Origin: Candidatus Latescibacterota bacterium
GTDB lineage: Bacteria > Latescibacterota > UBA2968 > UBA8231
Reading direction: 5' to 3'
Assembly: GCA_965261395.1 (NCBI GenBank)
Contig: OZ253462.1
Location: 3,488,001-3,552,000, forward strand
DNA: 64,000 nucleotides
In this document: positions 3,234-32,565 of the stretch, one piece after another
Layout: every line of letters begins with the position of its first letter
Position numbering within the stretch: the first letter of the stretch is position 1
Notes under the pieces: model-generated
Told to the model about the DNA's origin: nothing
The model's input: only the letters and a program-made list of their open reading frames with translations
Databases searched by the model: none
Program-made: the position numbers and the translations under genes

Positions 3234-3265
3234 AGGGCGCGAAGCCGCGTTGCTGCGCCCTGTTT
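3234..3265 (+). terminator. Possible intrinsic terminator
   Basis: AGGGCGC...GCGCCCT stem followed by GTTT just after the stop codon. Confidence 0.35.
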
Positions 3266-3269
3266 GCGC

Positions 3270-3299
3270 TTGACAATTCCCTGTACTTCCCTTTAGATT
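3270..3299 (+). promoter_or_regulatory. Sigma70-type promoter of the lipoprotein gene
   Basis: TTGACA at 3270-3275, 18-nt spacer, TAGATT at 3294-3299. Confidence 0.55.
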
Positions 3300-3351
3300 G
3301 TCTCTGATTATATAGGGAAGCACAGAACGTTCAAACTCAGGAAGGTGGACC

Positions 3352-4579: not shown

Positions 4580-4588
4580 CGATTAGCG

Positions 4589-6366: not shown

Positions 6367-6384
6367 ATTACAACAGGAGGATGT

Positions 6385-7059: not shown

Positions 7060-7078
7060 CGCGAAAGGAGATTGCACC

Positions 7079-10221: not shown

Positions 10222-10445
10222 TGGGCCAGAACGTGGAGCGTGTTGCGATAGCGGTCGATGATGTCTTCAGCCTTTGCCAGCTTTTTTGCAAAGGTGGGAT
10301 CGTAGGGCGTCATCTGGTAGCTGCCGTCCGGCCCTTCGATCAGAAATAGAGGCTCCCCGTCTTTGGTGCGCAGCCGGTTGACGACCTCCTTGGGCAGGAC
10401 GACGCCGAGTGAGTTGCCGAATTTGCGGACTTTGAGTTCGACCAT
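10218..10445 (-). CDS. AbrB/MazE-type antitoxin (addiction module antidote)
   Basis: LKVRKFGNSLGVVLPKE; AGGAGG RBS; GTGA overlap with doc. Confidence 0.9.
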   Translation of the reverse strand: MVELKVRKFGNSLGVVLPKEVVNRLRTKDGEPLFLIEGPDGSYQMTPYDPTFAKKLAKAEDIIDRYRNTLHVLAQ

Positions 10446-10460
10446 GAAATGCCTCCTGTT

Positions 10461-10482
10461 TGTTACTACCATTGTAATAACA
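10461..10482. promoter_or_regulatory. Putative TA autoregulatory operator
   Basis: Imperfect palindrome TGTTACTAC-catt-GTAATAACA directly upstream of the antitoxin RBS. Confidence 0.5.
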
Positions 10483-10614
10483 TCTAACCGAGGCGCAAGG
10501 AGAATGCCTAGTCGAGATGGATTTGCAGAGGCTGCATCCGAGTTGCTATCCCACTCAAAATTTAGGCAGGTAATCACTCAATGCTTAGTACCGGCTTCTA
10601 TCAGCTATGGTGCC

Positions 10615-12846: not shown

Positions 12847-12898
12847 TTGATGATACTCCTTTATCTGAGGCAAGTTTATCTGATCGCGGGCAGCTAAG

Positions 12899-14044
12899 TC
12901 AGGAGCAGCGGCACGGCGAAACACCCTTCTCTGGTTTCCAACAGCCGTTGCCAATCATAATTACGTCTTGACCGCCCTTGGAGCCACAACGGCAATTTGT
13001 GCAGAAGCGGCGTCGGCGTTTCTGTTTGAGATACATCGGTCCTGGAAACTTGCCATTCTGATACAGACCGCTCCGCACCCATGTCAACGTCTGGAAGTTT
13101 GAAGCATCAATTGCTTTGAGTCGACGGTATGCCTCCTCGTTCTCCGAGTCCTTCGATCCATGATGAGGGGCAGTCACGAGCATGTTCTTTCTAACTGGAG
13201 GTCGGAAAACGGGAGGGTGTCTTAGGGAACCGAACCCGGAGTCCGCTGAAAAGAGTACGTCGGGGCCGACCCCAGCCGGAGAATGTAGTACGAGACAGAG
13301 GCGGTTCACTGTAGTCAAGTACACTAAACCTAGCAAGGAATAGGGACTAGTTTGAACTACGTAAACCTCCGAAGCATTGACTAGGTGGAGATACGGGTGA
13401 GCCTCCTCGCTCGGCTGGGGCTTCTTATATGGGTCGAACCATCGAATCTCCGCGCCGCGCCGCGTTGCCGCGGTGGCCAAGCATAAGATGTTGTCTGCAC
13501 GGATCGTCGCAGTTTCAATTAAGGGAATGCCCTCGGCCTCTATGGGTACGTCCTCGCCCGACCGCTCGGAAATAAAAACGACGACTATGGGAAGAAAGGG
13601 ATAGAATTCGTCGAAATGCTGTGAGTCTGCTCTCTTCTTAAGCTCCATATTGAGCCATTCCGCGGAAATTTCTTTATCATCACGACGATCCTCTGTCTCA
13701 GGTATTTGCTCGCTGTAGTCGGTGAAACACAATTGTTTAAAGGCCAAATCGGGATCTTTCAGCATCATTTGAAGAGGCTGCATCCAAGTCGCTGGCAACC
13801 AACACTCCTTAGCCTTGCCACCGTTCTTGAAGAAATCAATGAGGCCGTTGGCGTGGTCGCTATCGTTGTGTGTGCAAACTACGACTTCGACTTCGACCTG
13901 TTGGCGTTTGGTCACTTTTCGAAATCTATCCACGAAGTTTTTGCGGCGACCTCCATCAACAAGGCAAGAAAACCCATCGCGTTCAAGATAGAAGGCGTCC
14001 CCCATACCAACATTCAGGGCGATAAATCGGTCGGAATGGCTCAC
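12899..14044 (-). CDS. Stand-alone ComEC/Rec2-like metallo-beta-lactamase-fold hydrolase (putative nuclease)
   Basis: LNVGMGDAF, LVDGG, THNDSDHANG, LFSAD, PHHGS motifs; no TM domain. Confidence 0.8.
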   Translation of the reverse strand: MSHSDRFIALNVGMGDAFYLERDGFSCLVDGGRRKNFVDRFRKVTKRQQVEVEVVVCTHNDSDHANGLIDFFKNGGKAKECWLPATWMQPLQMMLKDPDLAFKQLCFTDYSEQIPETEDRRDDKEISAEWLNMELKKRADSQHFDEFYPFLPIVVVFISERSGEDVPIEAEGIPLIETATIRADNILCLATAATRRGAEIRWFDPYKKPQPSEEAHPYLHLVNASEVYVVQTSPYSLLGLVYLTTVNRLCLVLHSPAGVGPDVLFSADSGFGSLRHPPVFRPPVRKNMLVTAPHHGSKDSENEEAYRRLKAIDASNFQTLTWVRSGLYQNGKFPGPMYLKQKRRRRFCTNCRCGSKGGQDVIMIGNGCWKPEKGVSPCRCS

Positions 14045-21087: not shown

Positions 21088-22083
21088 ATGAAATTTGGCA
21101 TCATCGGCTGCGGCTCCATAGCCGAGCACTCGTTTGGGCCGAGCCTGCTGGCTTCGGAACGGACCGACCTCGTCGCCGTCTGCCGTCGCGACCTCGAGGC
21201 AGCCAAGGCATTCGCGGCGCGATTCAGTGGCCCGCGCGCGTACGGCTCGGCGGCGGAGCTGGTGCGTGACGACCGGGTGGAGGCTGTCATCGTGTCGACG
21301 CCGGCCGATACCCATTGCGACTACACCTGCCTAGCGGCGGAGCACGGAAAGCACGTACTATGCGAGAAGCCGATGGCGAGAAACGCCGCCGAGTGTCGCG
21401 AAATGATCGCCACGTGCCGGGCTCACGGCGTGACCCTGGCGGTCGCCTACCGTCGGCGCACCTGTCCGCAAGTGGTCGCGGCCAAGCGGTTGATCGCCGC
21501 GGGCCGCATCGGCCGGGTCGTTTTCGCGCGTACCCATTACAGCGGGCGCTGGGATCCGGAAGCGGGGGATTGGCGGATCGAACCGGGCATCGGCGGCGCC
21601 CTGATGGAAATGGCGTCTCATCGCATCGAAGTGCTGTTGAACTTCGGCGGCCGGCCGCAGTCGGTGAGCGCTGTGGTCGACACGGTCGGTCACGACTGGC
21701 CCGTCGATGACACCAACGCCCTGATCGTGCGCTTCGAGGGTGGCGGGATCGGCATGCACTCGACGATCCTGACCTCGCCACCGCGTCGCGACTTTGCCCA
21801 GATCGACGGCGATGGCGGCAGGATACTGATTGACCCGCTGGAGTTGACAGCGGATCACCTGATTCTGGAGCTGCCCGATGGAACTGAGAGGATTGAGGTG
21901 GAGCCGCTGCAGGAGAAGCTATTCGATCTGCCGATGATCGAGGATTTCGCCGCCGCCGCAGAGCGCGGTGAAAAACCGGTCTGTGACGCGGAGAGCGGCT
22001 ACTGGGTGCAGGCGGTCGCCGACGCCGCCCGCGCCTCATCGAGTTCCGGTGTCGCGGTCGCCGTCGAACCGCTGGGCTCTTGA
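21088..22083 (+). CDS. Gfo/Idh/MocA family oxidoreductase
   Basis: MKFGIIGCGSIA, GKHVLCEKPMA, GGALMEMASH; AAGGA RBS. Confidence 0.92.
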   Translation: MKFGIIGCGSIAEHSFGPSLLASERTDLVAVCRRDLEAAKAFAARFSGPRAYGSAAELVRDDRVEAVIVSTPADTHCDYTCLAAEHGKHVLCEKPMARNAAECREMIATCRAHGVTLAVAYRRRTCPQVVAAKRLIAAGRIGRVVFARTHYSGRWDPEAGDWRIEPGIGGALMEMASHRIEVLLNFGGRPQSVSAVVDTVGHDWPVDDTNALIVRFEGGGIGMHSTILTSPPRRDFAQIDGDGGRILIDPLELTADHLILELPDGTERIEVEPLQEKLFDLPMIEDFAAAAERGEKPVCDAESGYWVQAVADAARASSSSGVAVAVEPLGS

Positions 22084-22145
22084 GGGTGCCTCGCCCCGTT
22101 TGCAGCGCTTGCTCGGCCGCCACGAGAAAGGTGCCTACGGCTGAG
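22082..22145 (+). repeat. Diverged duplicate of the PhyH gene 3' end (copy of 20927-20990)
   Basis: 6 differences in 64 bp (4 synonymous); includes the TGA stop; overlaps the stop codon of the inserted Gfo gene. Confidence 0.95.
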
Positions 22146-22151
22146 TGCGGG

Positions 22152-23255
22152 TTATTGGGTGGCGCGCACTTCGTCGGACCAATCCCGCCAGATGTCGCCG
22201 TTGGTGTTGTCCACTACTAGTGGATCGGGGAGGGATGCCGGCGTTTTGAGGAAACCGTAGATGGTCGCTTGGCGGATGACGTCGGCAGATAGATTTTGTC
22301 CGGCGATGTGCAAAATTTTGGTGTGCCACAAGACCACGGTGCCGGCGGGGCCGTGGCAATCGACGGGCTGGGTATCGACCTTGATGCGTTGGATGGCGGG
22401 GTCGTTGTAGCCGCCGACTTTGCGTTCCGCCAAGTGTTTGTCGGTATGCTTTTCGCCTTCTAGGAAAGCTTGCCACTGCTCGCGCCAGATTCGGCTGTGG
22501 CTGCCCGGCCACACTGTGAAGCCGCCGGAGTTGGGCGGTAGGTCGTCGGTGTAAGCCGACATTTGCAGCCGCCAGCGGCCGTAGCAGGCACCGTCGGAGT
22601 GGGCACCTCGGTAGTCGGGGCCAGGAGACGGGCTGTTGGGCAGGGTGCAATACAAGCCGCGCGTCCCCTGTCCGTTGAGCCATATCGGGCCGGTCTTGGG
22701 CAGGCGCAGTGCTTCCTCAGTGGTGAAGGACCCCTTCTCTGGCCACTTCTCGATCTCTTTGCCCAAGTGGCTGGCCAGCCCTCCCACCGCGTCGTCGCAC
22801 ATAAAGCACGGACCCGTCGTGATGCCAGCGTCATCCTCTCCAGCGGGCCACACCACCGTGCCCTCGCCAAGCAATTGCTCGGCGACTTGCCACAAGGCCC
22901 GAGGGGCCAAGTCGAGCATGAATTGTTCGGCACCGTTGCGGACATAGAAGCGGTGGCTGTTGCCGGCGAAATAGGGGTCGCCGCCGATATCGGGACGCTG
23001 TGCGTTTAGCGCGGTGCTTTCTTCCTCGGTAAGCGGGTCCCAGGTGGAGGGATCGTCCCGTTTTATGCGGGGCAGGTGGGTTGCAATCGCGGCCCACATT
23101 TCGTCCCTGGCCTGGCGGCAGAGGTCGGGGTCGAGCACGGCGGGGAGCACGAGGAAGCCGTCGCGCTTGAACTGGGCTATCTGGCTCGCGGTCAGGAGCG
23201 GGACTTGCTGCACGCTTGGGGTGGTTGGCGTTGGTTGCATATCAGGATTCACCAT
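22152..23255 (-). CDS. Phytanoyl-CoA dioxygenase (PhyH) family protein
   Basis: QFKRDGFLVL, AHSDG, GGFTVWPGSH, GTVVLWH..ILH.AGQN. Confidence 0.85.
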   Translation of the reverse strand: MVNPDMQPTPTTPSVQQVPLLTASQIAQFKRDGFLVLPAVLDPDLCRQARDEMWAAIATHLPRIKRDDPSTWDPLTEEESTALNAQRPDIGGDPYFAGNSHRFYVRNGAEQFMLDLAPRALWQVAEQLLGEGTVVWPAGEDDAGITTGPCFMCDDAVGGLASHLGKEIEKWPEKGSFTTEEALRLPKTGPIWLNGQGTRGLYCTLPNSPSPGPDYRGAHSDGACYGRWRLQMSAYTDDLPPNSGGFTVWPGSHSRIWREQWQAFLEGEKHTDKHLAERKVGGYNDPAIQRIKVDTQPVDCHGPAGTVVLWHTKILHIAGQNLSADVIRQATIYGFLKTPASLPDPLVVDNTNGDIWRDWSDEVRATQ

Positions 23256-23390
23256 GTTCCCTTGTTTTCAGATATGAAAATAAGAATGGGCTTAATTATC
23301 GTTCATGCTGGAATGCGCTAATAGCATAATAGGAATGGACGAATGAGGAAAGCTAAGAATGCCGACAAGAAAGGCGGTGTTATGACAGGC

Positions 23391-23418
23391 CCCGCTCTGG
23401 GAGAAATTCCGGAGCGGG
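23391..23418. terminator. GC-rich hairpin between the ThyX operon and phyH
   Basis: CCCGCTC...GAGCGGG stem; no clear U-tract. Confidence 0.35.
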
Positions 23419-23547
23419 AGCCTTAGTGTGCCTGCTGGCACAGCCGCCGATACCAAGTTATAGATGGGAGGTGTTTGAGGGGCTCCGGTTTGCCGATGAG
23501 AATTCAGCTACCGAAATACACCCTGATGCGAGGTGTATTCAGTATCA

Positions 23548-24495
23548 TCATTCTGAATCCTTGTCGTCCCTCCATGGTACCGGCAGACCAAGTTCGGTGA
23601 GCTTCACTTCCAATTCTTCCCTTTCTCTGTTTCGCTTCTGTCCCTTCTTATTCGGCGAGAGCCAGCCATTTTTGATCGCAAATCGGTTCGCTTCGTCTAG
23701 GTCGCCTTGTAATATTTGCTCAATTATCTCTTTATCGAGCCGTGTCAGGAACAGGGCATTGAGACGGTAATCAACGAATGCCTCCCAAGCGATCGGACAC
23801 CATCGAGCTACGATTTCATTCCCAATGATGTTCGCGTAGCCACGGATTTCTGTTTGTGCATGCGAATCCATTCTTAACGACAAGAAATGAAACAGATTAT
23901 GCAAATCTATCTTCCAGTACGCCTCTGTGTACGTCGAAAGAGGCAAGTCCTTTCGCGCTTGTTCTCGTGCAACACCCTTTTGAAGCCGTTCTTTGTATAC
24001 CTCTCTAGCTGCTCGTTGCAACTCATTTTCACGCTGAGTTAGATACTCACCTGTTTGACTGTCAAGGAAATCACCACTGCCCTGGCGATTCGTAGCACCC
24101 TGCTCACGCCATTGGTCACTCGATGTCTGTTGCGCGGCGTCGATTGCCTCAGAGTAACGCGTTGAGTACTCGTTCACGTTTGCAGTCCGGTGACGAATCC
24201 ATTGACGCCAACAATCCATGGGAACTCGGACATGAAGTTTAATCTCGCACATCTCAAATGGTGTAGTATGTCGATGACGCATTAAGTATCTGATGAGACC
24301 TCGGTCTTCATGAATCTTTTTCGTACCCTTTCCGTATGAGACACGGGCAGCTTGTACGATCGATTCGTCGGTTCCCATATAGTCGATAGCGCGAACAAAA
24401 CCATCGTCGAGAACTTTATATGGATTGCCGAGGATTTTATCTAGTTGAGCGGCATGAGGACGATGCGTCTTTTCAGCAGAATTTTCCATATTCAT
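23548..24495 (-). CDS. thyX: FAD-dependent thymidylate synthase
   Basis: IVQAARVSYG, LIRYLMRHRHTTPFE, RQWIRHRTANVNEYSTRYS (RHRx7S), GVAREQARKDLPLS, LHNLFHFLSLR...AQ.EIR; ATG 24495 overlaps the upstream TAA (TAATG). Confidence 0.95.
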   Translation of the reverse strand: MNMENSAEKTHRPHAAQLDKILGNPYKVLDDGFVRAIDYMGTDESIVQAARVSYGKGTKKIHEDRGLIRYLMRHRHTTPFEMCEIKLHVRVPMDCWRQWIRHRTANVNEYSTRYSEAIDAAQQTSSDQWREQGATNRQGSGDFLDSQTGEYLTQRENELQRAAREVYKERLQKGVAREQARKDLPLSTYTEAYWKIDLHNLFHFLSLRMDSHAQTEIRGYANIIGNEIVARWCPIAWEAFVDYRLNALFLTRLDKEIIEQILQGDLDEANRFAIKNGWLSPNKKGQKRNREREELEVKLTELGLPVPWRDDKDSE

Positions 24496-25463
24496 TATCC
24501 TCGCGGCAACTCCACCGTGTATTTCCAAATACGGGCTATGCCTCTGCTCGTGTTTTGGCTGTATCGTTCCTCAAATGGAAAAATGATGCTTGTTGCTGTA
24601 TTTCGGCGCTCTGTTACGTAATATAGAGCAAACCCAAGAACGTGTGCTTTCGTGGACAGTGGGCACAGATATAGATTAGTAATCCCTCTGCGAACGTTCC
24701 AATCATTGACCATACGACGCACTTCGCTAGCAGCAACGAAAGGGTCGTTTGCCGGTGCAAAAAAGGTACGAACCTCATCGTCAACTGTACCACCTAGAGA
24801 CTCTTCGGCCCTTCGTACACGAAGAACGTTCTCCTGATACATATCTGCACGCAACGACGGAAATCCAATCAATTGAAATTTCGTAGCCTTTGCTTTACTC
24901 TCCGCTACATGTGAGATCAGATTGTCTTCGTAGCCAGCACCAATTATTAATACATCTTTCCCGATATCATTTGTGTGGATTCCTTCGTAGCCTAAGACCT
25001 GTCGAACTTCCTTGACGACATCGCTAGAGAATTCGGTAAGTTCTCGCTTCTGGTATTGTATCGGTTCCGAATAAATGGCGTCGAATCTGGTGACACCCTT
25101 CTCTAACAGCCAAATCACAAGATATATAAGGTACGGTCGAATAAATCCTGAGATGTCGATACATATGCGTAAGTTCTGTGAGTCAGTCGGCAGAGTGTTC
25201 CAGAAATGAGCAATAAAAGTTGCTTCGTCGTCCGCAGCCTCATCGTACACTTTACCGCAAGGATATTCCGCAGTGGTGTAGCCGTACTCGGGAAAGATTA
25301 ACCAGTATTTATGCGTCGCGTTGACTTTATTGAATACGCATTTTGTTCGTTCGGCTGGTACGTAGGCTGAAATAAAGAGATCCCAGTTTTCCTGTGAACT
25401 CCACTCTCCAGAAACCGATAACTGACGTTTGTAAAAAATCGTGTAATCAGGATAGTTAGTCAT
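24495..25463 (-). CDS. Conserved-looking hypothetical protein, alpha/beta (Rossmann-like) segments
   Basis: 322-aa ORF overlapping both neighbours; IDISGF.RP, IYSEP..Y, LIIGAGYE, LCPLSTK. Confidence 0.8.
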   Translation of the reverse strand: MTNYPDYTIFYKRQLSVSGEWSSQENWDLFISAYVPAERTKCVFNKVNATHKYWLIFPEYGYTTAEYPCGKVYDEAADDEATFIAHFWNTLPTDSQNLRICIDISGFIRPYLIYLVIWLLEKGVTRFDAIYSEPIQYQKRELTEFSSDVVKEVRQVLGYEGIHTNDIGKDVLIIGAGYEDNLISHVAESKAKATKFQLIGFPSLRADMYQENVLRVRRAEESLGGTVDDEVRTFFAPANDPFVAASEVRRMVNDWNVRRGITNLYLCPLSTKAHVLGFALYYVTERRNTATSIIFPFEERYSQNTSRGIARIWKYTVELPRG

Positions 25464-27528
25464 CTTCCACTCCGAACAGCGTTCCCTGATTCTTACTCAC
25501 ATCATACTTTGTTTCTGGTCTTGTCCCAAAGAACGGTGCAGTCATTCTATCAATACGGGTTTTGAGTATCTGATCGAATTCGCTCGTGAAGGCTGGATCG
25601 AAGATGGCATTGAGTTCATCACCTGAAATGGCGAGCGTACCCCTGCGTATGAACGAAATGTCCCACCTTGGTGCAAGTATCCTGTTCATTTGGAATTTCA
25701 TATCTACACGCTCAGAGTTTCGGTCACGCTGTCCACCTACATTGACAAGCAACGACCATTTCTCGGCTAGGTCAATCAAACGCTGGGTATCGGCACTAAC
25801 AGATGCTTGTTCATAGCTGAAAGTAGATAAAGAGCATTCTGATGGTTTGTGCGAGTAGCGAATGCTGCGGAACAATGTACCTAATCGGTTGATTGCCTCC
25901 TGCACCAAATTTCCGTCCTTACCCTCCTTTATACGTGCATCACGAAAGAACCATTCTGCGGTTTCCCTAGCCCCCTCAGCTTGAGCTAAAACAGAAATTG
26001 GCTTTTCACCAAATGGATGTTCATCCTTAAACGCAGCCCACGCCATGACATGTTTAAGAAGGATCAGCAAGTGCCTTGGGTTTCCCCATGATAGCTCTAT
26101 GAAGGTATCGAAGCCAGCATATTGCTGTTTTCGGCGGCATTCACGTCGAAGTTGTGCGAGAAGATCATACTTCCAGTGAAGCAGCTTGCCATGATACTTC
26201 GTTCCTGTGTTTTCCTCTCTCAGATAAGTCTGGCAGTCAATGTGAATATTTTCGGCAGACTTTAAGAGATTACGGCGTGAACTCCATTGTTGATACAAGA
26301 TGAAACAATTAAGTTTTTCTAACAAAGGAAACTTCGGACATGACAGAAGGTCAACAACAGAGTCGATGTCACAGGAAGAAGTGATCCCTAGGGTTACCTT
26401 GGCCTTTAGTCCTTGCCGCATCACGTTCCGAAGTTTTTTGAAGTAGGGCCGTTCTCTATCGGAATATTTCTCAATTATAAACCGAGTTGAGCCCCCAGCA
26501 AGGCCATCCGTTGGATCCCTTTCAAAGGCTCTGGTCAGAAATTCGTGTGCTTCCTCATCGGTCTCCGGTGGATTGGCAAGGATGCCACGGGTATCTAAGC
26601 GACGAATAACAAGACGCCTAGCAAACGTAGCGTATTTTTCGTCATTTTCTCGTAAAGTTTTGTCGAGTATAAGTTGCTCGTACTCGGAGCCTTCTTTGTT
26701 GTTTTCATCTGCACAGAATGTTGAATAGGTCCTTATGCCGTAGAGCCGTGCACCAATCTTAAATGAGCACGGGTTCTGTTTTTCCCGGATCAACGTATTT
26801 ATAAGCTTCTGTTGGGACTCAGTCAGATTTTCAAATTCATCAACAAGGTAGACAAATAAAATGTTCTTCAGTTGTGAAAAGCGAGTCGATAGAACCTTTG
26901 GAATCCCGAAGATCAGTCTTCCGGGACTTACCCGAATTGTAATATCCAATACACCGGTAATGGCACAATTATTGACTTCAACATCGAGTTCTTTCTGCAA
27001 ATCTCGAAGATGCTGGCTAAAGTCATGAAGAGAACTCGGAAACTCACTAGCCGGCTCGTCAAACAGGTTCTCTAATTCAGCAATGATCGATGCTTCGCTA
27101 CCGTTGATATCGGCAGAGTTGCTAATAATCTCGCAGCATATATCAATAGTCATCTGTGAGAGCCAGAGTTCCATGTAGTAAGCAAAGACGTCCGCCCATG
27201 TATCTTCAGATTGTCTTTTTCCACGAAATCGAGTTGAGTTCAGGCCACTACAGCGCATATAGATTCCAATAAATCCTGCATCTCGAACACAGGCAGTCAG
27301 ATCCTCGGAATGACGCATCTTCTGCAGCGGAAACGAAAGATAGCGCATGATGTGCGTTTTCCCGCTTCCTTTACCGCCAAGAATAAGCATAGGCATTTCC
27401 AGGCGAGGTTGGATCAAATCCAGAAAGCCATCACCATAGGATAGGTCTACCCAATACTGCAATATCTGCTCATCTGTGAAATCGGCAGCTCTTGTCACGC
27501 TAAATGGGTTGTCAAGAAAATTATCCAT
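25456..27528 (-). CDS. P-loop NTPase (ORC/CDC6-like/STAND-like)
   Basis: N-terminal NPF...RA, Walker A GGKGSGKT, Walker B YLVDEFENL, GNPR sensor-like motif. Confidence 0.85.
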   Translation of the reverse strand: MDNFLDNPFSVTRAADFTDEQILQYWVDLSYGDGFLDLIQPRLEMPMLILGGKGSGKTHIMRYLSFPLQKMRHSEDLTACVRDAGFIGIYMRCSGLNSTRFRGKRQSEDTWADVFAYYMELWLSQMTIDICCEIISNSADINGSEASIIAELENLFDEPASEFPSSLHDFSQHLRDLQKELDVEVNNCAITGVLDITIRVSPGRLIFGIPKVLSTRFSQLKNILFVYLVDEFENLTESQQKLINTLIREKQNPCSFKIGARLYGIRTYSTFCADENNKEGSEYEQLILDKTLRENDEKYATFARRLVIRRLDTRGILANPPETDEEAHEFLTRAFERDPTDGLAGGSTRFIIEKYSDRERPYFKKLRNVMRQGLKAKVTLGITSSCDIDSVVDLLSCPKFPLLEKLNCFILYQQWSSRRNLLKSAENIHIDCQTYLREENTGTKYHGKLLHWKYDLLAQLRRECRRKQQYAGFDTFIELSWGNPRHLLILLKHVMAWAAFKDEHPFGEKPISVLAQAEGARETAEWFFRDARIKEGKDGNLVQEAINRLGTLFRSIRYSHKPSECSLSTFSYEQASVSADTQRLIDLAEKWSLLVNVGGQRDRNSERVDMKFQMNRILAPRWDISFIRRGTLAISGDELNAIFDPAFTSEFDQILKTRIDRMTAPFFGTRPETKYDVSKNQGTLFGVEDD

Positions 27529-27531
27529 ATA

Positions 27532-28512
27532 TCATTCCTTATATAGTTTTGGGTACCGCTTGAAGATAGGTGTCCACGGATTCCCATCAGATCCCTCACT
27601 CCAGATAATTGGCAGTGTGTTGTCTGGTGTATTATGTTGAAACCCAAGCAACAATTGGCAGTTGCCGTAACCAATCGGTGCATTCGGCTCAAGAGTATGA
27701 CCATATCTAAGGCACATCTGTTCAGCAAACTGCGCGTTGATATTGTTTGGCCAAGGCGAAGGAAAGTAGCGCGAGGAAGAAGAAAAACAACGAAAACTAT
27801 CATCGAGTTCGAATACACATCGAACTACGTCGAATTTCGTGTTATTACGGATGACATCCATACCTGTTGAAGTCGCACACAATACAAAGTACGAGATCTT
27901 GATATCTGGATTACACCTCTTGATTTCTTCGACAATGTCGGCTGAATAAACCTCGGCTTGATGTCCAGAGCCACAAAAATCATCTATAAAAACATAACGA
28001 TCAACATTTGGATTGCGAAACTTTAGCGTACTTACACAATGGTCGCTCCGATTAAAGATCATGGATTTGTTTTCGAATATATCGTTACTATGGATGAAGT
28101 GACTTTCGGGTAAGCTGTTTTCCTGTCGAAAATAGTATAGCAAATGAGGTCCACTTTCAGATGGACTTCCAACTCCAAGAAAAAGAGTTCTATTAAGAGT
28201 CTCTCGAAATTTTTGATTAATGAATTCAAGGTCAGTCGTGTGTCCGTTTTCCTCTCGAATCTGCTCAACAAGTGGGTATTTATAAAGATCGCGGAAAAGC
28301 ACTCGCATGAGTTCACGCATTTGGCGACTGCCGAAGTACATAAACTGCGATAGTAAATAGAGGGCGTGCAATTTGCACTCGTCTTCCGTCCCATTCGCCG
28401 GAGTGCTAAAATTGGCCAGCCAGTCTTCGATTTGTGGCTGCCTAGCTTCACGATCCCATATCGTCTCACTGAAAATCTTGATCTTGGTAAATAACTTATC
28501 TGAAAGAGACAT
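27532..28512 (-). CDS. Phosphoribosyltransferase-like protein (PRTase-CE-like)
   Basis: PRPP-binding loop YVFIDDFCGSGHQ; SESGPHLLYYFRQ; C-terminal PIGYG..QLL..F.HNTPDNTLPIIW. Confidence 0.8.
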   Translation of the reverse strand: MSLSDKLFTKIKIFSETIWDREARQPQIEDWLANFSTPANGTEDECKLHALYLLSQFMYFGSRQMRELMRVLFRDLYKYPLVEQIREENGHTTDLEFINQKFRETLNRTLFLGVGSPSESGPHLLYYFRQENSLPESHFIHSNDIFENKSMIFNRSDHCVSTLKFRNPNVDRYVFIDDFCGSGHQAEVYSADIVEEIKRCNPDIKISYFVLCATSTGMDVIRNNTKFDVVRCVFELDDSFRCFSSSSRYFPSPWPNNINAQFAEQMCLRYGHTLEPNAPIGYGNCQLLLGFQHNTPDNTLPIIWSEGSDGNPWTPIFKRYPKLYKE

Positions 28513-28526
28513 ACACTATTGCCCTT

Positions 28527-29897
28527 TTAATCTTTCACAAAAACGAGTACCCATTCTCGAGTAATCATGCCTGCAGTTTCGTTGCGCTTAGTCATGAGGC
28601 CGCGTGAGCGGATGTTGTCAATCATTCGCAAGACAGTTCGAAAACCTGTTTCCTCTGCTATCATTCGCAAGTAGTGTTGTGTTTTAAACTCACGTCCACA
28701 GATTTGATTGTTCGCCACAACCAGCACAAAATACCCACCAACCTTCAAGCTTCGCCACACTTCTTCGATTGATTCACGCATTTCGCGGAGATACGTCGAG
28801 GCAATCGTGGCACGAATCGGGTTCTCACTGTGAATGTCCATGAGGAATCTATCAGCAGCGCGAAGGCCTGTTTGGGAAAACGTAGCGTAATCAGATTTCC
28901 GAACTTCTTCTCGCCCAATCGTTTCAATCTTGTATTTGCGTAGCTCGTTTGATCTGCAGAGTCCGAGCCATCCCAAGCTAAGGCAAGATGACCGAATATA
29001 CTTTTGGGCACCCGGATAGGGAGGGGATGTAATAACGAGCTGCACTTGGCCAGTGGGGGGCTTTCCATTTGACGGAGATGTAGTGTCGCTGTATCCAAAG
29101 CTTCGTGCGTCGGATGACACTATTTTTGCAGTCGGTAGTTCGTCCGTAAATGGCTCGATAGATGCGATCCGTCTTCGATTCGAGTTTAGGATTTCTTTGA
29201 AAATGGTAATGACGTTTATACGTCGAAGACGGCGTATGTGAGCATCCGTCTTCTCGCGAAGGTTGTGGCCTTCTGGATACTGTCCTGGCCGCAATTTCAC
29301 CGGCACGGAGAGACGCGGATCGGAGAGACTGACTCTCTTGACGCAGCTAGAGAAACACACTCGGAAGAAATCGCGTATCTTCTCTTGGCTCGTCGCTTCA
29401 ATTGCCTCGTACAGACATTGAAGCTGACGAATAACGTGAGGGTAAAACCAGTATGCCAAGTTAACTACATCTGGAGTGCCGTTTTGGGATTCTTTAGGAA
29501 TGCGGTCCAGAAGATGGTCAGTAGCTGAATCCAAGGTCAGCACTGGGACTGGTGAGGTCTTGACGGTGGTGAGCAGTTGAGCAAGTGGGTTAGAGTCGGC
29601 ACCTATTGCGCGTCGCCTAGCTAGTTGTGCCTCCAGCAGTACGGTACCAGAACCGCAAAAAGGGTCAGCAACGACGTCCCCTTGTCGAGAGAGAATCGAA
29701 TTGGCCAAGAAGAAAAACGGGATGTGCATTAGCAATTTCGCCGGATAGGGGTGGAGCAAATGCGTTGCACGCTCGGCGGTTGGAAGGCAAGACACGAGAC
29801 GACGAAAGTCGACCGGCACTGCGCGCCCTGTCCTCTCATAGCGCTCTAGCAAGCGTTCTAATGCAGCGTCTGTGGGATATGTGTCGTAGTTGAACAT
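28527..29897 (-). CDS. Amino DNA methyltransferase (probably N4-cytosine, alpha-type motif order)
   Basis: HPYPAK, motif I DPFCGSGT near the N-terminus, motif IV ITSPPY in the C-terminal half, LKVGG.FVLVVAN. Confidence 0.9.
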   Translation of the reverse strand: MFNYDTYPTDAALERLLERYERTGRAVPVDFRRLVSCLPTAERATHLLHPYPAKLLMHIPFFFLANSILSRQGDVVADPFCGSGTVLLEAQLARRRAIGADSNPLAQLLTTVKTSPVPVLTLDSATDHLLDRIPKESQNGTPDVVNLAYWFYPHVIRQLQCLYEAIEATSQEKIRDFFRVCFSSCVKRVSLSDPRLSVPVKLRPGQYPEGHNLREKTDAHIRRLRRINVITIFKEILNSNRRRIASIEPFTDELPTAKIVSSDARSFGYSDTTSPSNGKPPTGQVQLVITSPPYPGAQKYIRSSCLSLGWLGLCRSNELRKYKIETIGREEVRKSDYATFSQTGLRAADRFLMDIHSENPIRATIASTYLREMRESIEEVWRSLKVGGYFVLVVANNQICGREFKTQHYLRMIAEETGFRTVLRMIDNIRSRGLMTKRNETAGMITREWVLVFVKD

Positions 29898-30153
29898 GAA
29901 CGACGGTGCTAGTGTCCTGTCTCAGAGATAATTTGGATCCATAGTCTGCAGCGGCAATTTGATACGGTTCTTTCACTAAAGTAAAGAAATTGGTCCGTCG
30001 AATTAAGTGGTTTGCAGACCGCTATGACGAAAAAGGCTCGCACTTACGATATTGAGCACTCGGCAGGCTCGCAGCCTTGAGCAGCATCTTGAGGGCATGA
30101 TCCAATATTCTGGATGAGCAACACTATATAGAATCTTCACGTAATGGTCAACA

Positions 30154-30246
30154 TCAAGCGCCACCAGCGTCGGTGAGCAGGTCGATAACAGCCGCGAGCC
30201 GATCCTTGTCTTTCACCTTGGAGCGCAATGCGGTTGCCAGCGGCGT
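30154..30246 (-). repeat. Diverged duplicate of the ankyrin gene 3' end (copy of 31552-31644)
   Basis: 9 differences in 93 bp (7 synonymous); includes the TGA stop; begins 4 bp after the Fic stop. Confidence 0.95.
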
Positions 30247-30250
30247 CGGC

Positions 30251-31411
30251 TTATGGTAATTCGGTACCCTCGCCGAGAATGGCAAGATATTGATCATAGC
30301 CGAAAAGCCGGTTCCGCTTCTTGCCCGTCAATTCGCGCGCTACTCCGACCCGTTCGAGTATCTGCATCCCGGTGGTAACCGCGGGGACCGAGAGTTCAGT
30401 GCGCTTGGCAAGTTCTTGGATCGATGCAATCGGGTGCTCCTGCAAAGCTTGGTGGACGCGCAGCGCCGACCCCGCCGCACGACCTGTCTGTTGTATCTTT
30501 GCTTGGTCTTCCTGAAACAGAGCGAGCAGCCGCTGTGCGGTCGAGACGGCCCCCTCCGCGGTCTGCGTCACGCCGTCGAGAAAGAACGCGAGCCACGCTT
30601 CCCAGTCACCGTCTTTCCGCACAGTATTGAGGAGTTCGTAATAGCTCTCTCGGTGTTGTTTGAAGTAGAGGCTCAAATACAGCAGCGGCTCGCGCAGCAC
30701 TCCGTCGTGACACAGCAGGAACGTGATCAGCAGGCGGCCGACCCGTCCGTTACCGTCGAGGAAGGGATGGATGGTCTCGAATTGGACATGGGCGAGTCCT
30801 GCCCGCAGGAGGGCGGGCAATCCGCAAGCCTCGGTATGGAGAAATCGCTCCAGATCCGACATGCACTCTGCAACAGCGTGTGCCGGCGCGGGCACGAAGC
30901 GCGCCGTTCCGGGCCGGCTGCCGCCAATCCAGTTTTGTGAGCGCCGGAATTCACCTGGGGTTTTGTCGCTGCCGCGACCTCGTGCGAGCAACTCGGCATG
31001 GATCTCGCGGATGAGGCGATTGCAGAGCGGGAATCCCTCGCGTATCCGGCGCAATCCATGTTCTAGTGCCGCCACATAATTCGAGACCTCGACAACATCG
31101 TCGAGGGGGGTACCTGGCATCTCCTCTAGTTCGAACAACAGAAGATCCGACAGTGAGGACTGGGTACCCTCGATCTGGGAGGACAGCACAGCCTCTTTGC
31201 GGACATAGGTGTAAAGGAACAGGTGAGCGTCGGGCAGCAACACGGAGAGACTGTCCAACCGGCCCAGCGCCAGCAATGCCTTCTCTAGGGGACCCTGCAG
31301 AGCTATCAGATCCAGTGCAGGCACGGGCGGAAGCGGCGCAGGTACGAAAGCTCGCACCGTCTCATCGCCAACGATTGTGGTCTCGTATTGGCCGGTTTCG
31401 CCGCGTCTCAC
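30251..31411 (-). CDS. Fic family protein (Fic_N + Fido + C-terminal HTH)
   Basis: EAVLSSQIEGT, PGEFRRSQNWIG, HVQFETIHPFLDGNGRVGR. Confidence 0.93.
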   Translation of the reverse strand: MRRGETGQYETTIVGDETVRAFVPAPLPPVPALDLIALQGPLEKALLALGRLDSLSVLLPDAHLFLYTYVRKEAVLSSQIEGTQSSLSDLLLFELEEMPGTPLDDVVEVSNYVAALEHGLRRIREGFPLCNRLIREIHAELLARGRGSDKTPGEFRRSQNWIGGSRPGTARFVPAPAHAVAECMSDLERFLHTEACGLPALLRAGLAHVQFETIHPFLDGNGRVGRLLITFLLCHDGVLREPLLYLSLYFKQHRESYYELLNTVRKDGDWEAWLAFFLDGVTQTAEGAVSTAQRLLALFQEDQAKIQQTGRAAGSALRVHQALQEHPIASIQELAKRTELSVPAVTTGMQILERVGVARELTGKKRNRLFGYDQYLAILGEGTELP

Positions 31412-31422
31412 GGAGAGGTTTC

Positions 31423-31484
31423 CTTATTAAGCACAACGTAATAAGCCGTATTGTTATTAATATTTAACGCTAAAGTATTAATAA
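31423..31484. promoter_or_regulatory. Two TTATTA/TAATAA inverted repeats upstream of fic (putative operators)
   Basis: CTTATTA-N9-TAATAAG (31423-31445) and TTATTAATA-N13-TATTAATAA (31454-31484). Confidence 0.55.
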
Positions 31485-31551
31485 GAACTATCGAATGCAA
31501 GGAATGAGCGTCAGCAATGGTGCAGGCTATCCATGTTCCCTTAGCTGAAGC

Positions 31552-32565
31552 TCAAACGCCACCAGCGTCGGTGAGCAGGCCGATGACAGCCGCGAGCCGA
31601 TCCTTGTCTTTCACCTTTGAACGCAACGCAGTCGCCAACGGCGTTGCGCCCTTGTCGTCTTTGGCGTTCACATCGGCCCCTCGGTCGAGCAGCAAGGCGA
31701 CGATTTGGTCAAATCCCGCTTTGGCGGCGCAGTGCAAGGCCGTTTGGCCCTTGTGGTTCCTGACATTGACGTCGGCCCCGCAGTCGAGCAACTCGCGCAC
31801 GCGCTGGACATTGCCGCCGCGGTCGCCGCGCGACTGGAAGACAAGGGGCGGCCAGCCGCCCTCGGCGTGGTCCACATCCACTGCGACGCCGTGAGCGGTC
31901 AACAATTCGATGATCTCAGTATTGACGATGCCGGAACGAGGGGCCTCGGCGTGGGTTGGATCGGCCCCGGCGTCGAGCAGGGCCTTGAGGATATCGGCGC
32001 GATCCCGCCACACGGCAAAGCGAATCAGCCAGCCACTGTATGGCCGCGGATCGGCACCCCGCGCCAATAGCATCGTGACGATGGCGAGGTGCCCGGCGCT
32101 GACGGCGTAGTGCAAAACCGTCGTGCGCCGACAGGAATCGTGCTGCGCCTTTTCGGCCGTTGCCAGACCCAGTTCTCGGTCGAGGTAGTCGGCGACCGCA
32201 TCGCTTTCGCCGAGAAAGGCAGCGGTGTAGATATCGGTCGTGGCACCGCGTGTTAGCAGCCGGTCGGCGACTGCGTGATGGCGCTTGTAACGGGCGGCGC
32301 AGTAGGGGGAGATTTCGACTAGCAGAGGCGTGAAGTGACAGCCGCAGGCGTGGATGTCAGCGCCTTGATCGAGCAGGTAATCGACCATGGCGAGCCGTCC
32401 CCGGTACGCAGCTTCCCACAGCATGGTGCGACCGTGCGAACCGACGCGGCTGATCCACGCTGGTTTTTGCGCCAATACGGCCTGAACGGTTTGGAGGTCG
32501 CCGCGCCCGGCGGCAGCGACCGCGACCTTGAGAAAATCACTGGCTTTTCCCGGCAGAATCGACAT
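31552..32565 (-). CDS. Ankyrin-repeat protein
   Basis: GRT.LWEAA..G, GADVN.RN.KGQTALHCAAKAG, GATPL repeats. Confidence 0.92.
   Translation of the reverse strand: MSILPGKASDFLKVAVAAAGRGDLQTVQAVLAQKPAWISRVGSHGRTMLWEAAYRGRLAMVDYLLDQGADIHACGCHFTPLLVEISPYCAARYKRHHAVADRLLTRGATTDIYTAAFLGESDAVADYLDRELGLATAEKAQHDSCRRTTVLHYAVSAGHLAIVTMLLARGADPRPYSGWLIRFAVWRDRADILKALLDAGADPTHAEAPRSGIVNTEIIELLTAHGVAVDVDHAEGGWPPLVFQSRGDRGGNVQRVRELLDCGADVNVRNHKGQTALHCAAKAGFDQIVALLLDRGADVNAKDDKGATPLATALRSKVKDKDRLAAVIGLLTDAGGV

What the first reader, a model, noticed from the sequence alone, without database searches (positions are those of the whole stretch)
23548..29897. Five-gene operon: DNA methyltransferase, PRTase, P-loop ATPase, unknown protein, ThyX; candidate nucleotide-centred anti-phage system
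Seen: five co-directional genes, visibly AT-richer than the flanks, with gaps of 14 and 3 bp and overlaps of 8 bp and 1 bp (TAATG), indicating one translationally coupled unit. No restriction endonuclease is recognisable next to the SPPY methyltransferase. Established: SPPY MTases with motif I before motif IV are typically alpha-type N4-C/N6-A enzymes, DDFxGSG is the PRPP-binding loop of type I PRTases, and ThyX converts dUMP to dTMP. From recollection, not a search: PRTase plus ORC/CDC6-like ATPase cassettes occur in predicted conflict systems. Inference: the MTase marks self DNA, the ATPase senses an invader (or loss of methylation) and activates the PRTase to deplete or re-route nucleotides, and ThyX buffers or redirects pyrimidine pools. 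I do not recognise this combination as a named, tested system.
Basis: partly seen in the sequence, partly recalled or inferred. Interest (0 to 1): 0.85.

Follow-up and report, generated by a model that had tools for sequence, protein, structure and literature searches.

The report
Methylase-PRTase-ATPase-CARF immune cassette carrying ThyX
A horizontally acquired five-gene operon combines a widespread but untested four-gene immune-type cassette (DNA methylase, phosphoribosyltransferase, ORC/Cdc6-like ATPase, tandem-CARF nucleotide sensor) with a spare thymidylate synthase, an add-on that recurs in related cassettes and hints at a link between this immunity and thymidine supply.

Summary
Five co-directional minus-strand genes (23548-29897) have the stated gaps and overlaps and form a low-GC island (0.42-0.50; flanks 0.60-0.64).

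The "unknown" gene is a tandem-CARF/SAVED-like sensor (PADLOC CARF6 1.7e-110; best fold match Can1, Z 12.5). MTase, PRTase-CE (PF24390), ORC-CDC6-like ATPase (PF24389) and CARF6 keep this gene order in 68 of 80 loci from many phyla, and occur on conjugative plasmids. My searches found no paper that names or tests the cassette. This scan had already flagged the four-gene cassette in other genomes.

New here: ThyX is a facultative but recurrent passenger.
- 20 of 68 cassettes carry a dTMP-pathway gene within 4 kb (ThyX, ThyA, dUTPase or dCMP deaminase).
- ThyX also follows sister cassettes with other effectors and DNA modifiers (8 of 47 HD-CE/C5-methylase loci; one kinase/DruA-Mom-like locus).
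- The island ThyX is surplus, because the genome has a full ThyA elsewhere.

Best reading: a DNA-modification-gated, ATPase/CARF-controlled immune system with a PRPP-dependent effector. It carries its own dTMP-supply module, whose exact role is inferred only.

The parts
28527..29897 (-). DNA methyltransferase, 456 aa. Motif I (DPFCGSGT, 78-85) comes about 205 residues before motif IV (SPPY, 291-294), an alpha-like order. The target base is not determined.
   Evidence: Pfam N6_N4_Mtase 2e-14. PADLOC MTase_II 2.6e-34. DPF.G.GTV and TSPPY are conserved at 90% or more in 69 homologues. The weak PDB sequence matches include N4-cytosine methylases.
27532..28512 (-). PRTase-CE phosphoribosyltransferase, 326 aa: the predicted effector. 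It has an N-terminal helical part and a type I PRTase core with the PRPP loop VFIDDFCGSGHQ (174-185).
   Evidence: PF24390 3.7e-69. PADLOC retron PRTase_III-A 2.1e-32. D177, D178, G181, S182, G183 and Q185 are invariant or nearly so in 43 sequences. AF2 model pLDDT 92.5. Top fold matches are uracil, orotate and purine PRTases at Z 10.4-9.7, which are ties.
25456..27528 (-). ORC/Cdc6-like AAA+ ATPase, 690 aa: the predicted DNA sensor or switch.
   Evidence: PF24389 3.3e-129 over residues 7-633. Walker A (K53, G54, G56, H59) and Walker B (D230, E233) are invariant in 37 sequences. No solved relative by sequence.
24495..25463 (-). Tandem-CARF (SAVED-like) protein of the CARF6 group, 322 aa: the predicted nucleotide-ligand sensor. 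Its start overlaps the ATPase stop by 8 bp.
   Evidence: PADLOC PDLC01914 1.7e-110. 1040 homologues at E<=0.001. AF2 model pLDDT 83.9. VIA-align: Can1 6sce_A Z 12.5 (rmsd 3.7, 220 aligned, residues 27-302); Csm6, Card1, Cam1 and Can2 Z 9.9-11.5; SAVED domains Z about 9.
23548..24495 (-). ThyX, flavin-dependent thymidylate synthase, 315 aa counted from the ATG that overlaps the CARF6 stop (TAATG). It is a surplus copy travelling with the island.
   Evidence: Pfam Thy1 1.4e-51 and TIGR02170 186 bits against a cut-off of 87.9. RHRX7S is conserved. GC is 0.47, like the cassette. It is the only ThyX in the genome, which also has a full ThyA elsewhere.
30123..30151 (-). Candidate sigma-70-like promoter (TTGACC-17-TATAGT) about 225 nt upstream of the MTase start.
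   Evidence: 10 of 12 matches and the best site in the region. The scan as a whole is not above shuffles (8 found, 9.7 expected), so this is only a positional candidate.
30251..31411 (-). Neighbouring SoFic-like Fic/HTH gene. It has host-like GC and is not part of the operon, but it marks a defence-gene hotspot.
   Evidence: PADLOC SoFic 1.2e-117; Pfam Fic_N, Fic and HTH_24. In the ~90% identical relative, a divergent SoFic-like gene sits on the other side of the cassette.

Best explanation
The 6.35-kb island is one copy of a mobile, widespread, experimentally untested immune-type cassette. Its proposed parts are as follows.
- A DNA methylase marks the host's own DNA.
- An ORC/Cdc6-like AAA+ ATPase acts as the DNA-reading switch.
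- A tandem-CARF protein bound to the ATPase gates it with a nucleotide ligand.
- A PRPP-binding phosphoribosyltransferase (PRTase-CE) is the effector that damages nucleotide metabolism and stops replication of invader or cell.

This copy also carries ThyX. ThyX is one form of a recurrent, facultative dTMP-supply module (ThyX, ThyA, dUTPase, dCMP deaminase) that travels with this cassette family. The module most likely keeps dTTP up and dUTP down in cells that carry the system. That would avoid self-triggering or collateral damage, or deny base-substituting phages a way round modification-based recognition.

Shown: gene content, gene order, mobility, catalytic motifs, the CARF fold, surplus status of ThyX, and recurrence of the dTMP genes.

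Inferred: self-marking, DNA sensing, the ligand, the effector's substrate, and what the dTMP module is for.
For: **Core cassette**
- 68 of 80 loci seeded with the CARF6 protein hold MTase, PRTase, ATPase and CARF6 in that order on one strand, across many phyla.
- Catalytic motifs are conserved in 69-70 homologues.
- The methylase slot is filled by unrelated DNA modifiers in sister or variant cassettes: C5 methylase, N6_Mtase on Klebsiella plasmids, and a DruA/Mom-like protein. This fits epigenetic self-marking.
- The effector slot varies: PRTase-CE, HD-CE, or a kinase fused to the ATPase.
- Neighbours include AbiV, AbiGi, TIR-TPR, RES, type I RM genes, PLD, SoFic/Fic, integrases and transposases.
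- The cassette is patchy within the genus: PRTase-CE scores over the cut-off in 3 of 24 congeners.
- It is found on 153 plasmid records, 136 of them conjugative, but in only 2 of 50,697 phage records, both partial.

**CARF fold and the ATPase-CARF pair**
- CARF fold.
- A PADLOC model of a fused kinase-AAA-CARF protein (PDLC01925) matches both the window ATPase (3.3e-4) and the separate CARF protein of L154 (3.3e-14).
- The predicted complex of ATPase 1-660 with CARF6 scored 0.56 against a best control of 0.00, verdict 'weak support'. That mark was reached by 58 of 80 solved complexes and 2 of 110 mismatches. At 0.60 or under it was reached by only 7 of the 80 and by both mismatches. The runs agree in at least 74% of contacts, and the partner's pLDDT is at least 78.

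**Tested precedent for a PRTase effector**
- ShosT binds PRPP and its toxicity disrupts nucleotide metabolism, with DNA damage (PMC11961720, abstract and passages).

**dTMP module**
- 20 of 68 cassettes have ThyX, ThyA, dUTPase or dCMP deaminase within 4 kb, and 19 have one within 650 bp. No hit lay further out in the ~9-kb flanks.
- 8 of 47 HD-CE sister loci have ThyX, once inside the operon.
- The kinase-type locus L154 has ThyX.
- S. meliloti plasmid pCpl has thyX overlapping the MTase start.
- The accessory genes share the cassette's GC rather than the host's: window 0.47 against 0.60-0.64; L031 0.56 against 0.72; L011 0.50-0.52 against 0.64.
- Linked ThyX is surplus in 6 of 6 genomes checked. 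Linked ThyA is a second full copy in 3 of 3 Bacteroidota.
- On a 91-tip ThyX tree, the 13 linked copies need 6 parsimony changes, against a shuffled mean of 12.4 and minimum of 8. This indicates several separate captures plus co-inheritance.
Against: - No experiment bears on this cassette. Defence, self-marking, ligand and substrate are all inferred.
- No signal synthase (cyclase) for the CARF protein is encoded in the operon.
- No nuclease was found, so how unmethylated DNA would be handled is unknown.
- The dTMP genes are absent from 48 of 68 PRTase-type and 39 of 47 HD-type loci, so they are not needed for the core function.
- ThyX beside a kinase-effector cassette (one locus, L154) argues against a role specific to nucleotide-pool effectors.
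- For dUTPase, the linked gene is the only clear dUTPase in 4 of 5 genomes, so it may double as the housekeeping gene there.
- L036's ThyX has host-like GC (0.70) and is probably a resident gene.
- L051's ThyA is a fragment.
- L062 and L063 are near-duplicates, and L002 is the window's close relative.
- Gene calls in the loci are my own crude ORF picks.
- The tree is FastTree, with local supports of 0.24-0.91 at the key nodes.
- Fold matching cannot choose between pyrimidine and purine PRTases.
Confidence: 0.6

Rival explanations
1. Anti-base-substitution add-on. The dTMP module exists to fight phages that replace thymine (uracil-DNA, hydroxymethyluracil and its hypermodified forms). Such phages must suppress host dTTP synthesis and use dUMP or dUTP. 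Extra ThyX, ThyA or dUTPase would force normal T into phage DNA and keep it readable by the modification-reading sensor.
For: The module goes with the modifier, ATPase and CARF core whatever the effector is: PRTase, HD or kinase. Two-step sets occur: dUTPase plus ThyX in L005, L011, L020 and L017; dCMP deaminase plus ThyA in L023 and L049. The common output is dTMP. A thymidylate-synthase-domain system was validated as anti-phage in E. coli, in another context (PMC13092281, passages).
Against: No phage data exist. Nothing shows that such phages infect these hosts. Similar add-ons were not looked for beside restriction-modification or BREX systems, so specificity is untested. The add-on is sometimes the same type as the housekeeping enzyme (a second ThyA in 3 of 3 Bacteroidota), which would not escape a phage inhibitor by being a different fold.
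Confidence: 0.15
2. Signal tuning. The tandem-CARF protein senses a deoxypyrimidine-pathway nucleotide, or a derivative that rises in infection. ThyX, dUTPase and the other enzymes set its basal level, in the way ring nucleases reset cyclic-oligoadenylate signalling.
For: No signal synthase is encoded in the operon. The CARF fold is well supported. The dTMP genes follow the ATPase-CARF core across three effector types.
Against: Solved CARF and SAVED ligands in the matched structures are cyclic or linear oligonucleotides, not mononucleotides (titles). The accessory enzymes share no single substrate or product apart from flux to dTMP.
Confidence: 0.1
3. Hitch-hiker. ThyX and the other dTMP genes are ordinary cargo of mobile DNA that happen to sit beside the cassette, with no functional tie.
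For: They are absent from most cassettes (48 of 68; 39 of 47). ThyX, ThyA and dUTPase are common auxiliary genes of mobile elements and phages (recalled, no call). L036 looks like chance adjacency to a resident gene.
Against: Links are at the operon border or inside the operon, with overlapping stop and start codons: window TAATG; L035, L060, L062 and L079; pCpl; L189 between MTase and effector. Linkage arose about six times or more on the ThyX tree and in three sister cassettes. No dTMP gene lies 4-9 kb out in the same loci. The window island holds nothing else mobile.
Confidence: 0.12
4. The cassette is primarily a selfish addiction or exclusion module. The methylase acts as antidote and the PRTase as poison, stabilising plasmids and islands, rather than serving as a host immune system.
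For: It is frequent on conjugative plasmids (136 of 153 plasmid records) and sits next to the replication genes of pKPHS2. No nuclease was found. The methylase is always present.
Against: This does not explain the ATPase and CARF sensor pair or the defence-island neighbours. The two roles are not exclusive.
Confidence: 0.13

Closest known systems
Unnamed MTase + PRTase-CE (Pfam PF24390) + ORC-CDC6-like ATPase (PF24389) + CARF6 (PADLOC PDLC01914) cassette
   Same: All four families match at 1e-69 to 1e-129, in the same gene order as in 68 of 80 loci. RefSeq annotates the plasmid copy as thyX, DNA methyltransferase and three hypothetical proteins.
   Different: This copy adds a translationally coupled ThyX. 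No held paper describes or tests the cassette. The paper that defined the CARF groups was not held, so what it says about CARF6 neighbourhoods is unknown to me.
Sister cassettes: C5 methylase + HD-CE (PF24391) + ORC-CDC6-like + CARF6; DruA/Mom-like + kinase-ORC-CDC6 fusion + CARF6
   Same: They share the ATPase-CARF6 core, a DNA modifier and one effector slot. ThyX is attached in 8 of 47 HD-type loci and in L154.
   Different: Different effector (HD phosphohydrolase or protein kinase) and a different modifier family.
CARF/SAVED effectors of type III CRISPR and CBASS (Can1, Csm6, Card1, Cap4/Cap5)
   Same: Tandem Rossmann-like CARF fold: Z 12.5 to Can1 over both halves.
   Different: No cyclase or Cas10 is nearby. 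The CARF protein is free-standing, with no fused nuclease. Ligand unknown.
PRTase toxins ShosT/PsyrT and retron type III-A PRTase effectors
   Same: PRTase core with a PRPP loop. PADLOC retron PRTase_III-A models match at 2e-32. ShosT binds PRPP and is toxic through nucleotide metabolism and DNA damage (PMC11961720).
   Different: No reverse transcriptase, no DprA-like antitoxin and no fused pyrophosphatase. No Rfam match in the region.
Methylation-based systems without a classical restriction nuclease (BREX, DISARM): resemblance recalled, not tested
   Same: A DNA methylase plus large ATPase-containing machinery and no recognisable endonuclease.
   Different: None of their marker families appeared in the Pfam or PADLOC scans of the operon.
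Thymidylate-synthase-domain defence system validated in E. coli (DefensePredictor, PMC13092281)
   Same: A thymidylate synthase domain within a validated anti-phage unit. dUTPase is highlighted in predicted systems (passages and figure legends).
   Different: The legend lists it with dNMP kinase, 5-hmdU kinase and NMAD domains, which is a different system. The PRTase found in that paper's supplement pairs with a NADAR protein. Figures were not visible to me.

Membership tests
MTase/PRTase-CE/ORC-CDC6-like/CARF6 cassette | PRTase-CE family protein with an intact PRPP loop | tested here: met
   PF24390 3.7e-69. DD..GSG.Q conserved.
MTase/PRTase-CE/ORC-CDC6-like/CARF6 cassette | ORC-CDC6-like ATPase with Walker A and B | tested here: met
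   PF24389 3.3e-129. Invariant K53, D230, E233.
MTase/PRTase-CE/ORC-CDC6-like/CARF6 cassette | CARF6-type tandem-CARF partner directly after the ATPase | tested here: met
   PDLC01914 1.7e-110. Fold Z 12.5 to Can1. 8-bp overlap with the ATPase.
MTase/PRTase-CE/ORC-CDC6-like/CARF6 cassette | DNA methylase in the same operon, with a conserved gene order | tested here: met
   68 of 80 loci share the order.
MTase/PRTase-CE/ORC-CDC6-like/CARF6 cassette | Anti-phage or anti-plasmid activity | not testable with these tools
   No experiment was found in the held papers.
Retron type III-A | Reverse transcriptase and msr/msd RNA next to the PRTase | tested here: not met
   No RT family in the operon or its neighbours. 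No Rfam match at E<=0.1 in 22000-32000.
Type II restriction-modification | Restriction endonuclease partnered with the methylase | tested here: inconclusive
   No nuclease family was found. Restriction enzymes are very diverse, so absence of a match is not proof. All five ORFs are otherwise assigned.
CBASS / type III CRISPR signalling | Nucleotide cyclase (CD-NTase or Cas10) that makes the CARF/SAVED ligand | tested here: not met
   None in the operon or in the neighbours scanned. The rest of the genome was not searched.
ShosTA / PsyrTA | DprA-like antitoxin paired with the PRTase toxin | tested here: not met
   No such family in the operon.
ThyX (flavin-dependent thymidylate synthase) | Score above the equivalog cut-off, and the RHRX7S motif | tested here: met
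   TIGR02170 186.1 bits against a cut-off of 87.9. R101, H102, R103 and S111 invariant in 7 sequences.

The most novel reading that the evidence does not exclude
A whole family of modification-reading immune cassettes (DNA modifier, ORC/Cdc6-like ATPase, tandem CARF and an exchangeable effector) repeatedly recruits its own thymidylate pathway (dUTPase, ThyX or ThyA, dCMP deaminase) as a working arm of immunity. The arm would either keep uracil out of self DNA so that the sensor does not fire on the host, or defeat phages that swap thymine for other bases. That would make control of the dUTP:dTTP balance a built-in part of a bacterial immune system.
Probability: 0.3. Interest if true: 0.8.

Novelty: new variant of a known kind. 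Interest (0 to 1): 0.62.

Why it matters
The four-gene cassette is common. The CARF6 protein has 1040 homologues at E<=0.001. The cassette is present in many phyla and on 153 plasmid records, including 128 Klebsiella plasmids. It has no tested function, no solved structure by sequence for the PRTase or ATPase, and no known CARF ligand.

The recurrent, independently acquired thymidylate genes give a concrete and cheap handle on its mechanism. One can compare operons with and without ThyX or dUTPase for toxicity, uracil in DNA, nucleotide pools and phage range.

If the link is functional, it would connect DNA-modification-based self-recognition, CARF signalling and deoxypyrimidine metabolism in one system.

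Tried and rejected
- **Literature.** Searches for 'PRTase-CE', 'CARF6', 'CARF+PRTase+Cdc6', 'PRTase+CARF', 'ORC-CDC6-like', and 'phosphoribosyltransferase+CARF+methyltransferase+defense system' gave no description of this cassette. The hits used the names in other contexts: retron survey table, polyvalent proteins, BREX PglW, ParA systems. PMC10542128 held none of the terms. The CARF classification paper was not held under two ids.
- **Close-relative search.** A search with the ATPase alone found only one locus.
- **CARF6 fold.** Foldseek against the PDB gave only weak tandem-Rossmann and Csm6 hits. VIA-align gave the clear CARF result.
- **PRTase substrate.** No call is possible from fold. 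VIA-align ranks uracil and orotate PRTases first and Foldseek ranks purine PRTases first, all within ties.
- **PDB sequence searches.** Nothing for the PRTase; only chance-level hits for the ATPase.
- **Island borders.** No flanking direct repeats, tRNA gene or integrase. No terminator-like site after ThyX, and the promoter scan was not above shuffles.
- **Reverse test on ThyX.** 0 of 80 nearest ThyX loci lie beside a PRTase-type cassette, so this ThyX clade is mostly free-living.
- **Expression.** No RNA holder was listed for the stretch.
- **Earlier-findings look-up by sequence.** Nothing found.

Full report
**1. Observation**

One search shows five long minus-strand ORFs between 23548 and 29897.
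- The last junction is ...GAGGATAATGAAT.... The CARF6 stop TAA shares its last A with the ThyX ATG at 24495, and a GAGGA lies just upstream.
- The longest ORF for ThyX starts at a TTG at 24528. The ATG start fits the relatives better.
- GC is 0.42-0.50 for the five genes, against 0.60-0.64 for the genes on either side. GC3 is 0.42-0.50 against 0.67-0.76.
- No flanking repeats, tRNA gene or integrase mark the borders.
- A promoter-like TTGACC-17-TATAGT lies about 225 nt upstream of the first gene. The scan as a whole is not above shuffles.

**2. What the genes are**

- Gene 1 is a DNA methylase: N6_N4_Mtase 2e-14 and PADLOC MTase_II 2.6e-34. Motif I lies about 205 residues before SPPY.
- Gene 2 is PRTase-CE: PF24390, 3.7e-69. 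It also matches the PADLOC retron type III-A PRTase models at 2e-32.
- Gene 3 is the ORC-CDC6-like ATPase: PF24389, 3.3e-129.
- Gene 4 has no Pfam or NCBIfam family but matches the PADLOC model PDLC01914 'CARF6--CARF_CARF_CARF' at 1.7e-110.
- Gene 5 is ThyX: TIGR02170, 186 bits against a cut-off of 87.9.

Structure models:
- An AlphaFold2 model of gene 4 (pLDDT 83.9) matches the tandem-CARF nuclease Can1 over both halves (6sce_A, Z 12.5, rmsd 3.7, 220 residues). It matches single CARF domains of Csm6, Card1, Cam1 and Can2 (Z 9.9-11.5) and SAVED domains (Z about 9). Foldseek alone was unclear.
- The PRTase model (pLDDT 92.5) has a type I PRTase core. Uracil, orotate and purine enzymes tie at Z 9.7-10.4, so no substrate can be named.

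The catalytic motifs of the methylase, PRTase and ATPase are conserved in 69-70 homologues.

**3. Relatives and the conserved unit**

- A Latescibacterota genome (OZ220690.1) is about 90% identical in DNA and syntenic on both sides. It holds the same five genes. The island was therefore already present in their common ancestor.
- A SoFic-like gene sits upstream of the cassette in the window and downstream of it in that relative.
- I seeded a search with an alignment of 28 CARF6 proteins and obtained 80 loci from many phyla.
- Of these, 68 hold methylase, PRTase, ATPase and CARF6 in this order on one strand.
- The other 12 are cut contigs or partial: L015, L017, L026, L043, L045, L050, L052, L056, L064, L074, L077, L078. 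L001 was dropped as a duplicate of L002.
- The conserved unit therefore has four genes.
- Within the window's genus, PRTase-CE scores over the cut-off in 3 of 24 other genomes.
- The ATPase is found on 153 plasmid records, 136 of them conjugative. It is found in only 2 of 50,697 phage records, both partial.
- On pKPHS2 and 127 other Klebsiella plasmid records, a distant version uses an N6_Mtase-type methylase.
- Genes next to the cassette elsewhere include AbiV, AbiGi, TIR-TPR, RES, type I RM subunits, PLD, Fic, integrases and transposases.

**4. ThyX and the thymidylate genes**

ThyX follows or precedes the cassette in only 7 of the 68 complete loci: L002, L003, L005, L011, L020, L035, L036. 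Other enzymes of the same short pathway also turn up.
- dUTPase: 8 loci (L005, L006, L009, L010, L011, L020, L031, L059).
- ThyA: 8 loci. In L060, L062, L063 and L079 it overlaps the methylase start. In L049 it is 152 bp away. L051 holds a fragment. L023 and L014 are 2.4-3.9 kb away.
- dCMP deaminase: 2 loci (L023, L049).
- Sources.

In all, 20 of 68 loci have such a gene within 4 kb, and 19 have one within 650 bp. None lies further out in the roughly 9-kb flanks.

The partial locus L017 has PRTase-ATPase-CARF6-dUTPase, with ThyX and the methylase on the other strand. The S. meliloti plasmid pCpl has thyX overlapping the methylase start. RefSeq calls the other three genes hypothetical.

Composition says these genes belong to the cassette and not to the host:
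- Window: ThyX 0.47, against flanks of 0.60-0.64.
- L031: dUTPase 0.56 and cassette 0.56-0.59, against flank 0.72.
- L010: 0.45 and 0.43, against 0.56.
- L011: 0.50-0.52 and 0.46-0.49, against 0.64.
- The exception is L036. Its 531-aa ThyX has host GC (0.70) and is probably a resident gene.

Are the linked copies surplus?
- The window's genome has one ThyX (this one), a full-length ThyA elsewhere (402.6 bits) and a weaker ThyA-like match.
- All 5 other genomes with a linked ThyX that I checked have another thymidylate synthase.
- All 3 Bacteroidota with a linked ThyA have a second full ThyA.
- For dUTPase the picture differs. The linked gene is the only clear dUTPase in 4 of 5 genomes.

**5. 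Sister cassettes**

I searched in reverse with the linked ThyX proteins and obtained 80 ThyX loci at 60-71% identity.
- None lies beside a PRTase-type cassette.
- Three lie directly after an ORC-CDC6-like ATPase and a CARF6 protein.
- L091 and L104 have a C5 cytosine methylase and HD-CE (PF24391).
- L154 has a DruA/Mom-like protein and a protein kinase fused to the ATPase.

Seeding with the HD-type ATPase gave 48 loci.
- 47 have the ATPase, and 44 of those are complete.
- 8 of the 47 have ThyX attached: L165 (the same contig as L091), L166, L167, L179, L183, L189, L192 (the same contig as L104) and L208. In L189 it lies between the methylase and HD-CE.
- Two of the eight are a short, distant ThyX type confirmed by Pfam.

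The thymidylate link therefore goes with the modifier, ATPase and CARF core across three effector types.

ThyX tree (FastTree, 91 tips: 13 linked, 78 free):
- Left out: L091 and L104 as duplicates, and L166, L167, L017 and L036 by score or type.
- The linked copies need 6 parsimony changes, against a mean of 12.4 and a minimum of 8 in 1000 label shuffles.
- Local supports at the key nodes are 0.24-0.91.
- This indicates several separate captures followed by co-inheritance. Identity of ThyX to the window tracks that of CARF6 (L003 69 against 70%; L011 51 against 49%), except in L035 (68 against 45%).

**6. How it most likely works**

*Shown:* four conserved active-looking proteins, mobility, defence-island company, exchangeable DNA modifiers, exchangeable effectors, and a tandem-CARF fold.

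*Inferred:*
- The modifier marks self DNA.
- The ORC/Cdc6-like ATPase reads DNA and switches.
- The CARF protein gates it with a nucleotide ligand.
- The effector, here a PRPP-binding PRTase, harms nucleotide metabolism.

Physical coupling of the ATPase and the CARF protein rests on four points.
- Their 8-bp overlap in the window.
- Small overlaps or gaps in many loci. ORF starts there are my upper bounds.
- A PADLOC model of a fused kinase-AAA-CARF protein that matches both parts.
- A complex prediction with verdict 'weak support': score 0.56, best control 0.00. The mark was reached by 58 of 80 solved complexes and 2 of 110 mismatches. At 0.60 or under it was reached by only 7 of the 80 and by both mismatches. 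The runs agree in at least 74% of contacts, and the partner's pLDDT is at least 78.

The only tested precedent I read for a PRTase effector is ShosT. It binds PRPP, has no known acceptor, and kills through disturbed nucleotide metabolism and DNA damage (PMC11961720, abstract and passages).

For the thymidylate module, the common output of all the add-ons is more dTMP and less dUTP. I rank its possible roles as follows.
1. Insulation of the host from self-triggering or collateral damage.
2. Countering thymine-substituting phages.
3. Tuning of the CARF signal.
4. Hitch-hiking.

It is weakened by the kinase-type locus, although that is a single case.

**7. Comparison with what is known, and novelty**

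- The parts are catalogued: Pfam PF24389, PF24390 and PF24391, and the PADLOC CARF6 models.
- This scan had already described the four-gene cassette and its variants in other genomes.
- No held paper names or tests the cassette. The paper behind the CARF group names was not available to me, so it may describe these neighbourhoods.
- A recent screen validated a thymidylate-synthase-domain system and a PRTase-containing system in E. coli. By their domain lists these are other systems (PMC13092281, passages, legends and a supplement search). I could not see its figures.
- The window is therefore a new variant (with ThyX) of a known, untested kind.
- The wider pattern is the useful new point: thymidylate genes recruited repeatedly by this cassette family.

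**8. Limits**

- Gene calls in the fetched loci are simple longest-ORF picks.
- Family labels in the loci come from phmmer with the window's proteins, plus Pfam and PADLOC spot checks.
- L062 and L063 are near-duplicates, and L002 is a close relative of the window.
- No matched control set of other defence islands was counted, so the enrichment rests on the internal contrast (border against outer flanks) and on rough expectation.
- No expression data were found (reported only as tried).

Noticed in passing
window 30251-31411 (-); L001 12262-13428: A SoFic-like Fic/HTH gene (PADLOC SoFic 1.2e-117, but NCBIfam SoFic only 146 bits against a cut-off of 550) lies upstream of the cassette here. In the ~90% identical relative, a divergent copy (about 74% over short stretches) lies downstream. 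The site looks like a small defence-gene hotspot.
   Followed up: partly
window 9820-14044 (-): A lower-GC stretch (0.52-0.55) holds a short Fic/Doc gene (133 aa), a 779-aa WD40 beta-propeller protein and an overlapping 381-aa protein with no Pfam family. It may be another acquired unit.
   Followed up: no
L214 (NC_016846.1, pKPHS2) 2816-7892; 128 Klebsiella plasmid records: A distant version of the cassette sits next to the replication genes of conjugative IncF-type plasmids: N6_Mtase-type methylase, PRTase-CE 2.9e-50, ORC-CDC6-like 6.8e-117, CARF6 5.3e-47. All but the methylase are annotated as hypothetical.
   Followed up: partly
L154 2857-9578: DruA/Mom-like protein, protein kinase fused to an ORC-CDC6-like ATPase (881 aa), CARF6-type protein (369 aa), ThyX and a DUF4365 protein, all on one strand. 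This is a third kind of sister cassette, seen once.
   Followed up: partly
G000:C1:5830288-5830809 (locus L084): The window's genome has a second, weaker ThyA-family match (82 bits, profile positions 50-224) besides the full ThyA at 5766027-5766812. Its nature was not examined.
   Followed up: no
L013 9964-11111; L053 10014-11125: Two cassettes are followed on the same strand by a similar pair of small ORFs (143/147 aa and 239/231 aa) with no Pfam family at E<=0.001. This may be another accessory pair.
   Followed up: no
L051 10575-11558 and G009:C1:24259-24774: In a Bosea genome, the ThyA match beside the cassette covers only profile positions 1-98. Positions 93-266 lie on another contig, as if thyA had been split.
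   Followed up: no
L016, L018, L019 (Pseudomonas), about 10100-10640: An MvaT-type xenogeneic silencer gene lies directly downstream of the cassette in three Pseudomonas loci.
   Followed up: no
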